This document shows positions 2,299 to 5,835 of a stretch of DNA of 10,011 nt, piece by piece. The notes under the pieces were generated by a model. The model was not told where the DNA came from and made no database searches. It saw nothing but the letters and a program-made list of their open reading frames with translations. The stretch's first letter is position 1, and every line of letters begins with the position of its first letter. The DNA lies in IMG/VR virus record IMGVR_UViG_2802429253_000016, positions 1-10,011 of that record; one strand, written 5' to 3'. The position numbers were made by a program, and so were the translations under genes. Origin of the DNA: a virus (lineage: Duplodnaviria; Heunggongvirae; Uroviricota; Caudoviricetes).

Positions 2299-2724
2299 TT
2301 AGTGCATCACCAGGGCATTTCCCGCCGGACCACCACGATTCATCTGATTGAAACCAGCGATCGCCACTGCGACAAAATCATCAGCGTCTCTCACCAGTCG
2401 TTCCCGCGTCTCCACCAGCTCCCGAAAATAGGCTGAACTGTGGCTGCGCATTCGGGCCACCAGCAGAGGTGGCATTGCTTTTTCGATCGCTGGTAACAAC
2501 GCCTGAATTTTTTTAACCGCATCAGGGGTGTCTTTCTCCACCCAGCGGAAAATCTTCTGAGTATTGCGAGCCAGGGCTTCTGGGTGTGAATCGTCGTACA
2601 GTTCCGGAAACGTCATACCCAGTTCAAAATAAGCCCGGGTTATTTCAGCTGCCGGAACTTTTTCTCCGTCCGGATGCGCCCAGGCATTCATCGCCATGCG
2701 GATGTGCTCATGCTTGATTTTCAT
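2299..2724 (-). CDS. YdaT-like protein (CII-type regulator analogue), 141 aa
   Basis: ORF immediately downstream of the cro-like gene with a 4-nt ATGA start/stop overlap at 2721-2724, the position occupied by cII in lambda and by ydaT in Rac-type prophages. Family call from memory. Confidence 0.65.
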   Translation of the reverse strand: MKIKHEHIRMAMNAWAHPDGEKVPAAEITRAYFELGMTFPELYDDSHPEALARNTQKIFRWVEKDTPDAVKKIQALLPAIEKAMPPLLVARMRSHSSAYFRELVETRERLVRDADDFVAVAIAGFNQMNRGGPAGNALVMH

Positions 2725-2948
2725 GAATCACTCTTCCTTTCGCTCTGAGTGGTATCCTTCTTTTTGTAAAGCTCTGGGTTCAAAGATAATTTTCCCTTGG
2801 AGTATGCAGCAGCTTCCGCAGCTCTCCCTTTCGGAACTATTTCACCGGGGCGCTTACGCCACATGTAAATAGCTTCGCGGGTTATCCCATAAAAATCAGC
2901 GACCCTCTGAACAGAGCCAAAAAACTGAACAAGTTCATCAACTCGCAT
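2721..2948 (-). CDS. Cro/DicC/YdaS-like small HTH regulator (75 aa)
   Basis: First gene of the leftward operon, divergent from the repressor. SD AGGAGG (2954-2959) 5 nt before ATG at 2948. Small, basic, HTH-like N-terminus. Confidence 0.75.
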   Translation of the reverse strand: MRVDELVQFFGSVQRVADFYGITREAIYMWRKRPGEIVPKGRAAEAAAYSKGKLSLNPELYKKKDTTQSERKSDS

Positions 2949-3044
2949 TTCACCCTCCTAAAATCTAAGTATTTTTAGATTACAGGATAATTTTTTTTAG
3001 GTCAATGCGATCTAAAATAATTTATATTCAACTCGCGGGAGAAA
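2949..3044. promoter_or_regulatory. Divergent immunity control region (oR-like) with 18-bp palindromic operators and pR/pRM-type promoters
   Basis: Operator ATCTAAGTATTTTTAGAT (2963-2980, perfect 6-6-6 palindrome) and ATCTAAAATAATTTATAT (3010-3027). On the minus strand TTGACC (3005-3000), a 17-nt spacer and TAATCT (2982-2977) form a candidate pR overlapping the first operator. TATATT at 3023-3028 is a candidate pRM -10. Confidence 0.6.
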
Positions 3045-3692
3045 ATGATGGAAAGCCTTGGCATCAGGCTTAAGAAACTCAGAAAAGATAAGGGACTCAC
3101 CCAAGTAGAACTGGGTAAGCTTTCAGGCGTGACTGGGGTTACTATAGGGTACTGGGAGAAAGATCTAAACGAACCCGGCAGCAAAGCTCTAAGTAAGTTA
3201 GCCCAAGCATTAGGAACTACTGAGTCCTATCTCCTGTATGGAGTATCGTCTCCTGAACTATCTTTTGTGCAGAGCAATCCAGGCACCAAGATCCCCTACT
3301 TTTCGTGGGGTGACGCGATTTCTTTCCTAATCTTAGAAGGAGAGAAAACAATGGGAAATGTCGATAGGATCACCACATTCTTTGATGTAGTGGAAGGTGA
3401 TTTTGCCGTTTCAATGCCTGATGACACTATGCATAACCCCTCAGGGTCGCCAAGTATCCCAGTTGGTGCCACTGTGATCCTAAGACCAGGAGAAAGTTAT
3501 AAAAATGGCAGTATCGTCGCTGTAATAGTTCCAGATCCTCTTACAAATGAACCGTCTATGACTATAAAAAAATTAGTTATTGATGGAAAACTTGTGTATT
3601 TAAGCCCTCTCAATCCGCGCTATCAATCATCCTTGCTTACGCCAGAGTGTAAAATTGTTGCCGTAGCAAAAGGTGTACAGTTCAACCTATAA
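3045..3692 (+). CDS. CI-type phage repressor: N-terminal XRE-family HTH plus C-terminal S24 (LexA-like) autopeptidase domain
   Basis: 215-aa ORF. N-terminus has an HTH (LTQVELGKLSGVTGVTIGYWE). C-terminus has VSM (Ser nucleophile context) and TIKKLVIDGKLVYLSPLNP, aligning with lambda CI GNSM and FKKLIRDSGQVFLQPLNP (Ser/Lys dyad). The second ATG at 3048 has better SD spacing (GGGAG 3037-3041). Confidence 0.9.
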   Translation: MMESLGIRLKKLRKDKGLTQVELGKLSGVTGVTIGYWEKDLNEPGSKALSKLAQALGTTESYLLYGVSSPELSFVQSNPGTKIPYFSWGDAISFLILEGEKTMGNVDRITTFFDVVEGDFAVSMPDDTMHNPSGSPSIPVGATVILRPGESYKNGSIVAVIVPDPLTNEPSMTIKKLVIDGKLVYLSPLNPRYQSSLLTPECKIVAVAKGVQFNL

Positions 3693-3788: not shown

Positions 3789-3970
3789 TATTGCATGCCA
3801 ACCCATCCCGTCCCCACAGAATGCAGGGCAATACTTCGAGTTACCAGGCAGTGGTCAGGGGTTAAGTAGCCAGCCCGAGGCGTAAGAACATGACGGCAGG
3901 GTTCAACTTTAATAACTATGCAGCAGGTTTTTGTTCCGCTACCCCGGCGTTAAGGGGAAATGAGGTCAAC

Positions 3971-4126
3971 ATGGATACTATCGATCTTGGCAACAACGAA
4001 TCTCTGGTGTACGGCGTGTTTCCCAACCAGGACGGCACATTCACCGCGATGACGTATACCAAAAGCAAAACGTTTAAAACCGAAAATGGTGCCCGTCGCT
4101 GGCTGGAAAGAAACTCAGGTGAGTGA
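3971..4126 (+). CDS. ydfA: YdfA-like small protein (DUF1391), 51 aa
   Basis: Internal ATG at 3971 with GAGG (3962-3965) 5 nt upstream. The product MDTIDLGNNESLVYGVFPNQDGTFTAMTYTKSKTFKTENGARRWLERNSGE matches the Qin prophage YdfA as recalled. The longer ORF from 3890 lacks an SD. Confidence 0.75.
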   Translation: MDTIDLGNNESLVYGVFPNQDGTFTAMTYTKSKTFKTENGARRWLERNSGE

Positions 4127-4127
4127 T

Positions 4128-4256
4128 ATGGATTTCGACACAATCATGGAAAAGGCTTACGAAGAATACTTCGAAGGCCTTGCCGAAGGCGAAGAAGCTC
4201 TCAGCTTCAGTGAGTTTAAACAGGCGCTTTCCAGTTCGGCAAAATCTAACGGCTGA
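4128..4256 (+). CDS. ydfB: YdfB-like small protein, 42 aa (not in the supplied ORF track)
   Basis: ATG at 4128 two nt after the ydfA stop. It encodes MDFDTIMEKAYEEYFEGLAEGEEALSFSEFKQALSSSAKSNG, with stop TGA at 4254-4256. Length and position match Qin ydfB as recalled. Confidence 0.65.
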   Translation: MDFDTIMEKAYEEYFEGLAEGEEALSFSEFKQALSSSAKSNG

Positions 4257-4285
4257 TAAGCGAAACAGCACCGCGAGGAATCAGT

Positions 4286-4501
4286 ATGCAGAAACCAGAA
4301 CCCATCATCATCGCACCAGGCTATACCGATGATGAAATTTACGAATGGATGTGCGGGAAGATACGCGCCATTAATGACCTGAAGCAGGCTGCTGACTATA
4401 AAGAGCGCCTCTCTAAAGAACTGGCGTCAGCGGAGCAGGATATTACCACTCTGGCAAAAAGCGCGGCATTAAACGTTTCACGAGTGAATGAAAACTACTG
4501 A
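4286..4501 (+). CDS. ydfC: YdfC-like small protein, 71 aa
   Basis: ATG at 4286 with GAGGAA (4275-4280) 5 nt upstream; third gene of the dicB-type operon. Confidence 0.8.
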   Translation: MQKPEPIIIAPGYTDDEIYEWMCGKIRAINDLKQAADYKERLSKELASAEQDITTLAKSAALNVSRVNENY

Positions 4502-4516
4502 CTGATGAGGTTGACG

Positions 4517-4846
4517 ATGGAATTTAAAGATTTACCAATACCATTCCAGGAAATGGCAGCGAATATAGTTCGTTCCCAACTGGCGACTCTTGACCTGAGT
4601 ACCGTAGAAAAAGAAACCATCGATAATATATCCGGTAACGTGCGTCGCGCCTTTATCGGGTTGTACGAAGAGAAGCAACTCTCTGATAACCAGGATTTGC
4701 ATGAAAAATACTTCCTGGAATTAATGAACATCATTGATAAGGGGTTTGGCTTGTTAATGAAAAAGAAAGGGATTCGAATAGAACCCCTTGAAAATTACTT
4801 TGCAACAAAAAGCATTAATTCTTTTGATTCAAAACAAGAGAATTAA
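4517..4846 (+). CDS. Hypothetical protein (109 aa) in an AT-rich insertion; function unknown
   Basis: ATG at 4517 with GAGG (4507-4510) and a 6-nt spacer (the ORF track starts at 4505). Markedly AT-rich relative to flanking DNA. Its 3' end overlaps the convergent ORF by 32 nt. Confidence 0.5.
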   Translation: MEFKDLPIPFQEMAANIVRSQLATLDLSTVEKETIDNISGNVRRAFIGLYEEKQLSDNQDLHEKYFLELMNIIDKGFGLLMKKKGIRIEPLENYFATKSINSFDSKQEN

Positions 4847-5090
4847 TAACAGATTTAACATGCTCTTTCTCATGATTGAAGCTCTCATGATTGAAAGCGC
4901 CGGGTTGAAGCGAGTCGATATAATCAACAAGACTCTGTCGTACGACTTCATTTTTATCCATAACAGATGCAAGAAATGAAATTGCTAAAAGAGTTATATC
5001 ACTACGCGCCGCAGCATGCTGCAATGCTTTATCAAAATTATTAATCTGGCGTATCAGGGAGTTAATGATTTCATTATTTTCAGTCGACAT
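4815..5090 (-). CDS. Hypothetical protein (91 aa), antisense-oriented within the pL operon; function unknown
   Basis: ATG at 5088-5090 preceded by AGGAGGG (5096-5102) with a 5-nt spacer; this RBS context (AGGAGGGTGAAATG) is identical to that of the cro-like gene. The longer ORF to 5168 has no SD. AT-rich. Confidence 0.5.
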   Translation of the reverse strand: MSTENNEIINSLIRQINNFDKALQHAAARSDITLLAISFLASVMDKNEVVRQSLVDYIDSLQPGAFNHESFNHEKEHVKSVINSLVLNQKN

Positions 5091-5421
5091 TTCACCCTCC
5101 TGAGGGTTGGTGATTAAGGAGTTCTCCACGGGTGAGGTGGAGTGCGTGCGCCGGACACGGGTGAGCATCCGGCACTGACAGTTTACTGAAAGGATATATC
5201 CCTGAAAAGTCAGGGCATAACGCGAAAGCGCACGGCGAAGTTCTTCTGTCTATACGGTGTCGTTAAATTTAATTCGACCGTGCGCTTCCGGTTGTGGCAC
5301 TCCGCGAAATGGCGCGGCGGTAAGTATGGCGGGGTTATTCCTTCCCCGTTGAGGACACCGGGTTGTCAGGTTGACCATACGCTTAAGTGACACCCCCGCT
5401 GCAACGCCCTCTGTTATCAAT

Positions 5422-5477
5422 TTTCTGGTGACGTTTGGCGGCATCTGTTTGCCCATGAACTGATGCCCGCCCTTTTT
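5422..5477 (+). ncRNA. dicF: DicF-like small regulatory RNA with intrinsic terminator
   Basis: The 5' segment TTTCTGGTGACGTTTGGCGG matches the DicF 5' end as recalled. Hairpin GGCGGCATC (5437-5445) / GATGCCCGCC (5462-5471), then CTTTTT. It sits between ydfC and dicB, as in the Qin dicB operon. Confidence 0.7.
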
Positions 5478-5479
5478 AA

Positions 5480-5631
5480 AGTGAATTTTGTGATGCGGTG
5501 AATGCGGCTCAGCGCACGCGGAACAGTTAAAACCAAAAACAGTGTTATGGGTGGATTCTCTGTATCCGGCGTTAATTGTTAACTGGTTAACGTCACCTGG
5601 AGGCACCAGGCACCGCATCACAAAATTCATT
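5480..5631 (+). promoter_or_regulatory. Long-range RNA stem (about 20 bp) enclosing about 110 nt between DicF and the dicB RBS; candidate RNase III processing or translational control structure
   Basis: 5482-5500 tgaattttgtgatgcggtg is the exact reverse complement of 5611-5629 caccgcatcacaaaattca, extendable by a G-U and an A-U pair. The 3' arm ends 5 nt before the dicB SD (GAGGA, 5635-5639). Confidence 0.5.
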
Positions 5632-5646
5632 GTTGAGGACGCGATA

Positions 5647-5835
5647 ATGGAAACGTTATTACCAAACGTTAATACGTCTGAAGGTTGTTTTGAAATTGGT
5701 GTCAGAATCAGTAACTCTGCATTTACTGAAGATGCCATTAACAAGAGAAAACACGAACGGGAGTTATTAAATAAAATATGCATTCTTTCAATGCTGGCAC
5801 GTTTACGCCCGATGCAAAAAGGATGCTGGCAATGA
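5647..5835 (+). CDS. dicB: DicB cell-division inhibitor (62 aa)
   Basis: ATG at 5647 with GAGGA 7 nt upstream. The product METLLPNVNTSEGCFEIGV...NKICILSMLARLRPMQKGCWQ matches DicB as recalled. The ORF-track N-terminal extension from 5542 is non-coding leader. Confidence 0.85.
   Translation: METLLPNVNTSEGCFEIGVRISNSAFTEDAINKRKHERELLNKICILSMLARLRPMQKGCWQ

What the first reader, a model, noticed from the sequence alone, without database searches (positions are those of the whole stretch)
4502..5102. AT-rich insertion carrying a convergent, 3'-overlapping pair of small ORFs inside the dicB-type operon
Between the ydfC-like gene and DicF lies an AT-rich block, judged by eye, with two unrecognised ORFs facing each other: 4517-4846 on the plus strand (109 aa) and 4815-5090 on the minus strand (91 aa). 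Each has a credible Shine-Dalgarno and their 3' ends overlap by 32 nt. The minus-strand gene is antisense to the pL-type transcript, so the two are necessarily in expression conflict. The compositional contrast and the arrangement suggest a horizontally acquired moron, with candidate roles as a toxin/antitoxin-like pair, a superinfection-exclusion or abortive-infection module, or a regulator of dicF/dicB expression. Neither product has a motif I can assign.
Basis: partly seen in the sequence, partly recalled or inferred. Interest (0 to 1): 0.75.

Follow-up and report, generated by a model that had tools for sequence, protein, structure and literature searches.

The report
Variable antisense gene cassette in Qin-like prophage
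The AT-rich block holds two real but uncharacterised small genes facing each other inside a prophage's early operon, and the backward-facing one is one of at least four interchangeable small genes found at this spot in about a quarter of E. coli genomes, placed like the phage-exclusion gene sieB of phage lambda but with no function yet shown.

Summary
Window 4517-5104 is an AT-rich indel (GC 0.38; 0.35 in its core) that K-12 Qin lacks. It carries a 109-aa plus-strand ORF (4517-4846) and a 91-aa minus-strand ORF (4815-5090) whose 3' ends overlap by 32 nt, lying between a ydfC-like gene and a DicF-like RNA.

Both ORFs evolve like protein-coding genes: dN/dS is 0.14-0.35 in their own frames, and the minus ORF is intact in all 57 IMG/VR loci where it was read, with only in-frame indels.

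The two are not one unit. The plus ORF is a PHROG 6937 member that occurs alone, as a 124-aa protein, in at least 461 genomes. The minus ORF occurs in 198 of 5426 complete E. coli genomes.

The segment 4666-5090 is a hypervariable slot. It is bounded by the conserved N-terminal coding part of the plus ORF and by a conserved leader with a strong Shine-Dalgarno sequence. Other prophages fill the slot with three other antisense genes, of 69, 77 and 92 aa.

Pfam, NCBIfam, PADLOC, PDB and fold searches gave nothing informative. The only lead is a probable remote relationship to the 92-aa type.

The best reading is a sieB-like accessory gene expressed in the lysogen. Its function and its promoter are unproven. 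Interest is moderate.

The parts
4517..4846 (+). Plus ORF, 109 aa. Early-left operon gene of the PHROG 6937 family, with GAGG (4507-4510) as its Shine-Dalgarno sequence.
   Evidence: PHROG 6937 E = 1.5e-67 over residues 1-107 of a 124-position profile. dN/dS is 0.14-0.35 in frame, against about 1 or more in the other two plus-strand frames; two minus-strand frames also score low. 232 homologues, almost all Escherichia and a few Salmonella. The ATG at 4505 is not conserved in other loci.
4517..4665 (+). Conserved N-terminal module of the plus ORF (about 50 aa), shared by proteins with different C-terminal halves. It forms the left boundary of the variable slot.
   Evidence: Residues 1-55 also match PHROGs 1363, 2151 and 9419. 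Nucleotide homology to L008, L009, L010, L015 and L016 ends at 4665. The same module is found in Stx2a-converting phages at 48-52% identity.
4666..5090 (.). Hypervariable slot, GC 0.353: the C-terminal half of the plus ORF plus the whole minus ORF coding sequence.
   Evidence: Homology with other Qin-like prophages stops at 4665 and resumes at about 5091 in L010, L015 and L016 (5088 in L008, 5067 in L009). GC.
4815..5090 (-). Minus ORF, 91 aa. Predicted four-helix soluble protein with almost no detectable relatives.
   Evidence: Only 15 near-identical hits among 5.8 billion clusters. Nothing beyond its own cluster in an exhaustive phmmer search of 1.84 billion representatives. dN/dS is 0.29 in frame, against 0.5-1.6 in the five other frames. 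Intact in all 57 IMG/VR loci where it was read. Within the major lineage, 8 synonymous against 4 non-synonymous variable codons. AlphaFold2 model: 4 helices, pLDDT 68.
4815..4846 (.). 32-nt overlap of the two 3' ends. The recombination joint with the solo 124-aa form lies at about 4834-4840.
   Evidence: Homology with L004 runs to 4833-4836, so the last six or so codons and the stop of the minus ORF lie in sequence shared with the solo plus gene.
4757..4789 (-). Terminator-like hairpin for the minus gene, embedded in the plus ORF: a 9-bp stem at 4789-4767 followed by UUUCUUUUUC.
   Evidence: This is the only terminator-like site the scan found in 4200-5700. Folding of the 71-nt segment 4750-4820 gave -14 kcal/mol, z = -2.9. 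It starts 26 nt after the minus ORF stop. It is not present behind the other cassette types, so its function is unproven.
4869..4898 (-). Two tandem 15-nt units inside the minus ORF, encoding FNHES-FNHEK. Copy number varies between strains.
   Evidence: Variants of 86, 91 and 96 aa differ by exactly one unit and are always in frame.
5091..5104 (-). Shine-Dalgarno sequence AGGAGGG (5101-5095) and the 4-nt spacer of the minus ORF. This is the right edge of the indel relative to K-12.
   Evidence: Read. The K-12 alignment resumes at 5105. The identical motif CCCTCAGGAGGGTGA(A)ATG precedes the unrelated 77-aa gene and the 92-aa-type gene.
5105..5200 (-). Conserved leader upstream of the minus ORF. 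It is backbone sequence, also present in K-12, and folds into stable hairpins. It is the candidate promoter region.
   Evidence: About 90% identical across all loci, including K-12. RNA fold z = -4.1. The hairpin part travels with the minus ORF into a different context in L048. No promoter met the scan's criteria here. By eye, TTTTCA-17 nt-TAAACT gives 8 of 12 matches.
4286..4501 (+). ydfC-like gene. Context: the left neighbour.
   Evidence: PHROG 1744 E = 1.7e-26. Aligns with the annotated ydfC of K-12.
5423..5472 (+). DicF-like small RNA with a variant terminator stem. Context: the right neighbour.
   Evidence: Rfam RF00039 at 35.9 bits, E = 9.4e-06, below the gathering score of 48. The 5' part is identical to other loci, while the stem differs.

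Best explanation
The block is one allelic state of a polymorphic accessory slot in the early-left (dicBF, pL-type) operon of a Qin-like lambdoid prophage.

Shown:
- Both ORFs are conserved as protein-coding genes.
- The plus gene is an ordinary member of the operon. It has a conserved N-terminal module of about 50 aa and an exchangeable C-terminal half.
- The minus gene is a separable add-on. It sits behind a conserved leader with a strong Shine-Dalgarno sequence, runs antisense to the operon, and ends inside the plus gene, shortening it by 15-18 codons.
- At least three other small antisense genes occupy the same slot in other prophages.
- Phage lambda has the same geometry with sieB, which converges on N.

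Inferred:
- The minus gene is transcribed from a promoter in or beyond the conserved spacer while the prophage repressor keeps the early-left promoter off.
- Its small helical protein acts in the lysogen, most plausibly in excluding other phages or in buffering the toxic dicF/dicB/ydfD genes.
- On induction, convergent transcription and sense-antisense pairing over roughly 32-90 nt shut it down.

The specific function is unknown.
For: Coding status:
- dN/dS is 0.29 for the minus ORF and 0.14-0.35 for the plus ORF in their own frames. All five other frames are higher for the minus ORF; for the plus ORF two minus-strand frames are comparably low.
- All 57 IMG/VR loci where it was read carry an intact minus ORF, with only in-frame changes of one 15-nt unit.
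- Within the major lineage, 8 of 12 variable sites fall at codon position 3.
- No shuffle out of 2000 reproduced both ORFs.

Separability:
- K-12 lacks both genes.
- 198 genomes carry both.

Slot architecture:
- Homology breaks at 4665 and at about 5091 in the cleanest cases.
- The same leader and Shine-Dalgarno sequence sit in front of the 91-, 77- and 92-aa genes, and the distal leader in front of the 69-aa gene.
- Genome counts are 198, 650, 597 and 127 of 5426 for the four types.
- The +135/-77 pair is present in the deposited genome of phage Evi.

Other points:
- Foreign composition: GC 0.353, GC3 0.30.
- A terminator-like hairpin follows the minus ORF stop.
- Lambda sieB (34482-35036, plus strand) abuts and converges on N (35037-35438, minus strand) inside the pL operon.
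- Allelic depth at the minus gene only: forms at 98%, 80% and about 27% protein identity, while the flanks stay about 90-97% identical.
Against: - No promoter for the minus gene met the scan's criteria in 5091-5300, and there are no expression data.
- The conserved leader is also present in K-12, where there is no gene to serve. Its conservation may therefore reflect plus-strand RNA processing of the DicF precursor (PMC10448788).
- The terminator-like hairpin lies in sequence shared with some solo plus genes, and the other cassette types lack one.
- There is no match to any PADLOC defence model, and none to SieB.
- The proteins are soluble, unlike membrane-bound SieB.
- The fold models are only moderately confident, and their matches are generic helical bundles.
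Confidence: 0.55

Rival explanations
1. The two products form a cognate pair of effector and inhibitor, in the manner of toxin-antitoxin or toxin-immunity systems. The variable C-terminal half of the plus protein would be neutralised by the matching minus protein, which would explain why both vary together within one slot.
For: - The variable segment spans exactly the C-terminal half of the plus gene plus the minus gene.
- Four different plus C-terminal types each come with a different minus gene.
- The window-type minus gene is always found with the plus gene (199 of 199 records).
- The minus protein is a small helical bundle; by general knowledge, many immunity and antitoxin proteins have that shape.
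Against: - Nearly the same plus protein persists alone in at least 461 genomes.
- L008 keeps its minus gene next to a truncated plus pseudogene.
- The genes are convergent and, given that geometry, presumably oppositely regulated, unlike type II toxin-antitoxin operons.
- There are no toxin or antitoxin domain hits.
- Co-variation of two adjacent genes is expected from linkage alone.
Confidence: 0.15
2. The minus-strand unit works mainly at the RNA level. Convergent transcription, or the antisense RNA itself, would damp leaky read-through from the early-left promoter into the toxic dicF, dicB and ydfD genes, and the protein would be secondary.
For: - The unit lies directly upstream of dicF and dicB and opposes their only known promoter (PMC10448788).
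- The 3' overlap and the terminator inside the plus gene would yield 32 to about 90 nt of duplex.
- There is precedent for prophage antisense RNAs with exclusion or regulatory roles (PMC7067206).
Against: - The purifying selection is specific to the minus reading frame.
- The Shine-Dalgarno sequence is conserved and strong.
- The ORF is intact in every IMG/VR locus where it was read.
- Four unrelated coding sequences occupy the slot, each kept as an ORF.
Confidence: 0.15
3. The minus ORF is a non-functional remnant or an annotation artefact in a decaying cryptic prophage.
For: - It has almost no homologues and none in deposited phage genomes.
- RefSeq start calls are inconsistent: 86, 91 and 145 aa.
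- An ORF of this length arises in 4.7% of shuffles.
- The related 92-aa type is frameshifted in L011 and L012.
Against: - dN/dS is 0.29, and the two lineages have diverged to dS 0.40 without any disruption.
- All 57 IMG/VR loci where it was read are intact, with only in-frame indels.
- The strong Shine-Dalgarno sequence is retained in the diverged lineage.
Confidence: 0.07

Closest known systems
sieB of phage lambda (also in P22 and Rac): a superinfection-exclusion gene lying antisense within the pL operon
   Same: - It is a gene on the opposite strand inside the early-left operon.
- It converges on, and abuts, the 3' end of an operon gene: N ends at 35037 and sieB ends at 35036.
- By general knowledge it is expressed in the lysogen from its own promoter.
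- It lies upstream of the cell-division inhibitor: kil in lambda, dicB here.
   Different: - There is no sequence relationship; no Pfam SieB hit was found.
- The proteins here are 69-92 aa, soluble and helical, not a membrane protein of about 190 aa.
- No promoter has been identified here.
- No exclusion phenotype has been tested.
Phage morons: extra genes with their own transcription signals and deviant composition, present in some related phages and absent from others
   Same: - Presence/absence polymorphism among otherwise collinear prophages.
- Lower GC than the flanks.
- A terminator-like hairpin downstream.
   Different: - The cassette carries no promoter of its own. Its right boundary is the start codon or Shine-Dalgarno sequence, so it depends on backbone sequence for transcription.
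- It disrupts the end of a resident gene instead of sitting between genes.
PHROG 18692: uncharacterised 92-aa prophage proteins of Escherichia and Salmonella
   Same: - Same slot, strand and leader/Shine-Dalgarno sequence.
- Nearly the same length.
- A collinear, near full-length weak match: hmmscan E = 0.017; hhalign E = 6.4e-4 with 28% identity over 78 columns; 25-31% identity in MAFFT.
   Different: - The similarity is below usual significance: hhalign probability is 28%, and BLASTP finds nothing.
- That family's function is equally unknown.
Type II toxin-antitoxin modules
   Same: Two small adjacent genes with overlapping ends on a mobile element.
   Different: - The genes are convergent, not co-directional, so they cannot be co-transcribed.
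- Neither protein has a recognised toxin or antitoxin domain.
- One partner commonly occurs alone.

Membership tests
PHROG 6937 (plus ORF) | Significant full-length match to the family profile | tested here: met
   E = 1.5e-67 over residues 1-107 of a 124-position profile. The last 17 profile positions are missing because of the truncation.
PHROG 18692 (minus ORF) | Significant match to the family profile | tested here: inconclusive
   hmmscan E = 0.017, collinear over profile positions 6-89 of 92. hhalign E = 6.4e-4 with probability 28%. No BLASTP alignment. Same genomic slot and leader.
SieB superinfection exclusion protein | Sequence homology to SieB | tested here: not met
   The Pfam-A scan of both ORFs at E up to 1 gave only chance-level hits, none of them SieB.
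SieB superinfection exclusion protein | Antisense placement inside the early-left operon, converging on an operon gene | tested here: met
   In the window the minus ORF converges on the plus ORF. In lambda, sieB converges on N.
SieB superinfection exclusion protein | Expression in the lysogen and abortive exclusion of superinfecting phage | not testable with these tools
   This needs transcript mapping and phage challenge.
Moron | Present in some and absent from other closely related prophages, with deviant base composition | tested here: met
   [not shown]
Moron | Own promoter upstream and own terminator downstream | tested here: inconclusive
   A terminator-like hairpin lies at 4789-4767. 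No promoter met the scan's criteria upstream, and the cassette ends at the Shine-Dalgarno sequence.
Type II toxin-antitoxin system | Co-directional two-gene operon | tested here: not met
   The genes are convergent.
Type II toxin-antitoxin system | Recognisable toxin or antitoxin domains | tested here: not met
   No Pfam or NCBIfam family scored above chance.
Known anti-phage defence systems (PADLOC-DB 2.0) | Match to a defence protein model | tested here: not met
   The only hit was BrxA at E = 0.016 and 12.6 bits for the 91-aa protein, which is chance level. Among the other cassette proteins there was only a chance-level HerA hit (E = 0.021, 11.1 bits) for the 133-aa plus protein.

The most novel reading that the evidence does not exclude
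The slot is a diversity hot-spot for a new class of prophage specificity module. Each allele would pair a variable C-terminal effector domain on an early protein with a cognate small antisense-encoded protein made in the lysogen. Together they would set exclusion or immunity specificity between competing Qin-like and lambdoid phages, or would gate the toxic dicF/dicB genes. The deep allelic divergence confined to the slot would reflect diversifying selection.
Probability: 0.15. Interest if true: 0.7.

Novelty: new member of a known kind. Interest (0 to 1): 0.4.

Why it matters
The dicBF region of Qin-like prophages is present in most E. coli. It encodes toxic regulators, DicF and DicB, that also alter phage sensitivity.

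About 1570 of 5426 complete genomes carry one of four uncharacterised antisense genes immediately upstream of dicF. The 1570 is the sum of four separate searches, so genomes with two types are counted twice.

If these genes act in the lysogen, three things follow:
- They would be a common, unannotated layer of prophage-host or phage-phage interaction.
- They would be a convenient natural allelic series for finding new exclusion or regulatory proteins.
- They would lengthen and oppose the DicF precursor transcript, which could change DicF and DicB output between strains.

If they have no such role, the finding is still useful for annotation. The 145-aa RefSeq models of the minus gene are probably over-extended.

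Tried and rejected
- Family scans. Pfam, NCBIfam, PADLOC and PHROG scans of both ORFs gave only chance-level hits. The exceptions were the PHROG matches of the plus ORF and the weak PHROG 18692 match of the minus ORF.
- Word-indexed search of 5.8 billion clusters and exhaustive phmmer search of 1.84 billion representatives with the minus ORF. Both returned only its own near-identical cluster.
- tblastn of the minus ORF. Deposited phage genomes gave nothing. Plasmids gave one E. coli record.
- Profile searches against PDB sequences. The best E-values were 0.12 and above.
- Scan of GTDB species-representative genomes with the combined minus-family alignment. No relatives were found.
- Rfam at a permissive threshold. 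Nothing matched the leader or the insert apart from DicF and STnc100 further downstream.
- The longer minus ORF models of 117 and 145 aa. I rejected them for three reasons. The extension lies in backbone sequence that K-12 keeps without any ORF. The extension is broken in this window upstream of 5168. The Shine-Dalgarno-proximal ATG marks the cassette boundary in three cassette types.
- The 177-aa minus ORF at 5250-5783. I rejected it as spurious: it matches no family and is antisense to DicF and dicB.
- A lead from L048, where a Zn-ribbon/coiled-coil ORF of about 172-216 aa precedes the minus gene on the same strand. It gave no Pfam or PADLOC hit.
- Literature searches. I found no paper dealing with these ORFs or with an antisense transcript between ydfC and dicF.
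- I could not run a two-chain structure prediction.
Full report
**1. What is in the sequence**

The window is the immunity and early-left region of a Qin-like lambdoid prophage. Its gene order is as follows.

- Replication genes, a YdaT-like gene and a Cro-like gene lie on the minus strand.
- A 215-aa CI/LexA-type repressor lies at 3045-3692 on the plus strand.
- The plus-strand operon follows: ydfA (DUF1391, 3890-4126), a ydfB-like ORF, a ydfC-like ORF (4286-4501), the block in question, a DicF-like RNA (5423-5472), dicB (5647-5835), a DUF1482/ydfD gene, a long exonuclease gene and an integrase.

The plus ORF runs 4517-4846 (109 aa), with GAGG 6 nt upstream of its ATG. The minus ORF runs 4815-5090 (91 aa), with AGGAGGG 4 nt upstream. 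Their 3' ends overlap by 32 nt.

The composition contrast is real. GC is 0.33-0.40 across 4501-5100, against 0.45-0.55 on either side. GC is 0.353 in the core 4666-5090. GC3 of the minus ORF is 0.30, against 0.48-0.51 in neighbouring genes.

The ORFs exceed chance. In 2000 dinucleotide-preserving shuffles of the block, a plus ORF this long arose 15 times, a minus ORF this long arose 93 times, and both together never.

**2. The block is an indel, but a layered one**

- Against K-12 Qin, roughly window 4473/4488-5104 is replaced by about 40-50 bp. K-12 keeps the ydfC stop, a short spacer and then the sequence that starts at window 5105.
- That 124-aa form is the reference length of PHROG 6937. 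Its tail, which ends ...ISINH, is kept open in diverged members. The junction of this solo form is found in at least 461 of 5426 complete E. coli genomes.
- The minus ORF is found in 198 genomes. In every case both ORFs are annotated under the match.

So the pair is not a single unit. The minus gene is separable. Where it is present, the plus gene is 15-18 codons shorter. The last six or so codons and the stop of the minus ORF lie in sequence shared with the solo plus gene. I could not tell which state came first.

**3. Both ORFs behave as genes**

*Plus ORF.* Pairwise dN/dS is 0.14-0.35 in frame, against about 1 or more in the other two plus-strand frames. Two minus-strand frames over the same stretch also score low, as low as 0.16, so frame specificity is weaker here than for the minus ORF.

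*Minus ORF.*
- Two lineages exist, at about 98% and 84.5% nucleotide identity.
- Between them dS = 0.40, dN = 0.116 and dN/dS = 0.29. The five other frames give 0.5-1.6.
- IMG/VR yielded 58 loci. In the 57 with the start region present, the ORF is intact: 55 at 91 aa, one at 96 aa and one at 86 aa. The length variants differ by one copy of a 15-nt tandem unit at window 4869-4898.
- Within the major lineage, 8 of 12 variable sites are at third codon positions, and 8 variable codons are synonymous against 4 non-synonymous.

*Start of the minus ORF.* The 91-aa start is preferred over the 117-aa and 145-aa models for four reasons.
- The strong Shine-Dalgarno sequence is retained in both lineages.
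- The high-divergence zone begins exactly at the ATG.
- The 5' extension lies in backbone sequence that K-12 keeps without an ORF.
- The 145-aa frame is closed in this window.

**4. The block is one state of a recurrent slot**

Other Qin-like prophages carry, at the same place, a plus ORF with the same N-terminal 50 or so residues but a different C-terminal half, followed by a different small minus-strand ORF.

| Loci | Plus ORF | Minus ORF | 3' ends |
|---|---|---|---|
| L010, PPompW prophages, deposited phage Evi | 135 aa | 77 aa (PHROG 10348) | overlap 23 nt |
| L009, L008 | 212 aa (PHROG 2151) | 69 aa (PHROG 4274) | abutting |
| L011, L012 | 133 aa | 92-aa type (PHROG 18692), frameshifted in these two loci but intact elsewhere | overlap 41 nt as called in L012 |

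Nucleotide homology with the window ends at 4665, which is codon 50 of the plus ORF. It resumes at 5091, the base before the minus ATG, in L010, L015 and L016, and within about 25 nt of that in L008 and L009.

The 91-, 77- and 92-aa genes are all preceded by the identical CCCTCAGGAGGGTGA(A)-ATG and the same 100-nt leader. The 69-aa gene shares the distal leader.

Genome counts among 5426 complete E. coli genomes are 198 for the window type, 650 for the 77-aa type, 597 for the 69-aa type and 127 for the 92-aa type.

In one IMG/VR locus (L048), the leader hairpins and the minus ORF follow a minus-strand ORF of about 172-216 aa with coiled-coil and Zn-ribbon features, instead of the dicF spacer.

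**5. What the proteins are**

*Minus protein.* It has no relatives beyond its own cluster among 5.8 billion clusters or 1.84 billion representatives. It has none in deposited phage genomes. It has no Pfam, NCBIfam or PADLOC match.

Its one lead is the 92-aa PHROG 18692 type, which sits in the same slot.
- hmmscan gives E = 0.017, collinear over nearly the full length.
- Profile-profile comparison gives E = 6.4e-4, 28% identity over 78 columns, probability 28%.
- MAFFT gives 25-31% identity with small gaps.
- The nucleotide alignment has z = 3.1.
- BLASTP finds nothing.

Given the shared position, leader and length, I regard the two as probable diverged alleles. This is not proven.

**6. How it most likely works**

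The minus gene cannot be expressed from the early-left transcript, so it needs a minus-strand promoter. None lies within the cassette, whose right edge is the Shine-Dalgarno sequence. The scan found no site meeting its criteria in 5091-5300. By eye, TTTTCA-17 nt-TAAACT in the conserved spacer gives 8 of 12 matches.

The leader folds into stable hairpins, z = -4.1. However, the same sequence belongs to the DicF precursor on the other strand. [quoted passage not shown] Conservation alone therefore does not show which strand is under selection.

A terminator-like hairpin with a U-run lies 26 nt past the minus stop, inside the plus ORF.

The geometry matches lambda sieB, which is antisense in the pL operon and converges on N with abutting ends. 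From this I infer three things.
- The minus gene is expressed in the lysogen while the repressor silences the early-left promoter.
- It is shut off by convergent transcription and RNA duplex formation on induction.
- It is an accessory gene acting for the lysogen.

Deep allelic divergence confined to the slot, against flanks that stay about 90-97% identical, fits genes involved in phage-phage or phage-host conflict. That is an inference, not a result.

A cognate effector-inhibitor pair is a weaker rival. The plus gene persists alone in more genomes than carry the pair. One cassette type keeps its minus gene beside a plus pseudogene.

A purely RNA-level role is disfavoured by the frame-specific constraint. 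A non-functional ORF is disfavoured by its intactness across diverged copies.

**7. Comparison with what is known, and verdict**

No paper found here treats these ORFs. Databases call them hypothetical proteins, with inconsistent starts for the minus gene.

The finding is a real, previously uncharacterised accessory gene arrangement of a familiar kind: a moron-like gene in an early-left operon, positioned like sieB. What this analysis adds is that the locus is a multi-allelic slot with sharply defined boundaries, common in E. coli and sitting just upstream of the toxic dicF/dicB genes. Function and expression remain untested.

Interest is moderate, at 0.4.

Noticed in passing
window 5423-5472: The DicF-like RNA scores below Rfam's gathering score (35.9 against 48 bits). 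Its 5' seed part is identical to that of other loci. Its terminator stem-loop (about 5441-5466) has a different sequence that still forms a hairpin before the T-run, unlike all seven other loci aligned.
   Followed up: partly
window 5470-5679: The spacer between DicF and dicB gives a sub-threshold, full-length match to the Salmonella sRNA family STnc100 (RF02076, 37.7 bits against a gathering score of 47, E = 3e-06).
   Followed up: no
window 5105-5420: The roughly 320-nt untranslated spacer upstream of DicF is about 90% conserved across all Qin-like loci, including K-12. It contains several strong hairpins, including CCCTGAAAAGTCAGGG (5201-5216), which by eye resembles a lambda boxB. Whether it serves plus-strand processing or antitermination, or minus-strand expression, is open.
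   Followed up: partly
L048:2228-2878 (IMG/VR UViG_2757320581_000006): In this prophage, the 91-aa gene and its leader hairpins are preceded on the same strand by an ORF of about 172-216 aa with coiled-coil and Zn-ribbon features (CPNC...CLKC). The dicF spacer is missing upstream of the leader. The ORF has no Pfam or PADLOC match.
   Followed up: partly
L011:2865-3140 and L012 (same coordinates): The 92-aa PHROG 18692-type antisense gene is split by a 1-nt frameshift into 27-aa and 64-aa pieces in these two loci. Intact 92-aa copies (P0139) exist elsewhere.
   Followed up: partly
window 4869-4898: A 15-nt tandem unit inside the minus ORF varies between one and three copies among strains, always in frame. 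It gives proteins of 86, 91 or 96 aa.
   Followed up: yes
[not shown]
   Followed up: no
window 2934-2962: The Cro-like gene (2721-2948, minus strand) has exactly the same Shine-Dalgarno, spacer and start string, AGGAGGGTGAAATG, as the 91-aa minus ORF. This is probably coincidence between two strong ribosome-binding sites.
   Followed up: no
L001:5314-5751, L003:3126-3563, L005:2982-3419: RefSeq annotates the minus gene as 145 aa in these genomes, but as 91 or 86 aa in RM8082 and JNEC-KY173. The long model extends into backbone sequence shared with K-12 and is probably an over-extension.
   Followed up: yes
window 5250-5783 (minus strand): A 177-aa ORF runs antisense to DicF and dicB. It matches no family in Pfam or PHROGs and is most likely spurious.
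   Followed up: partly
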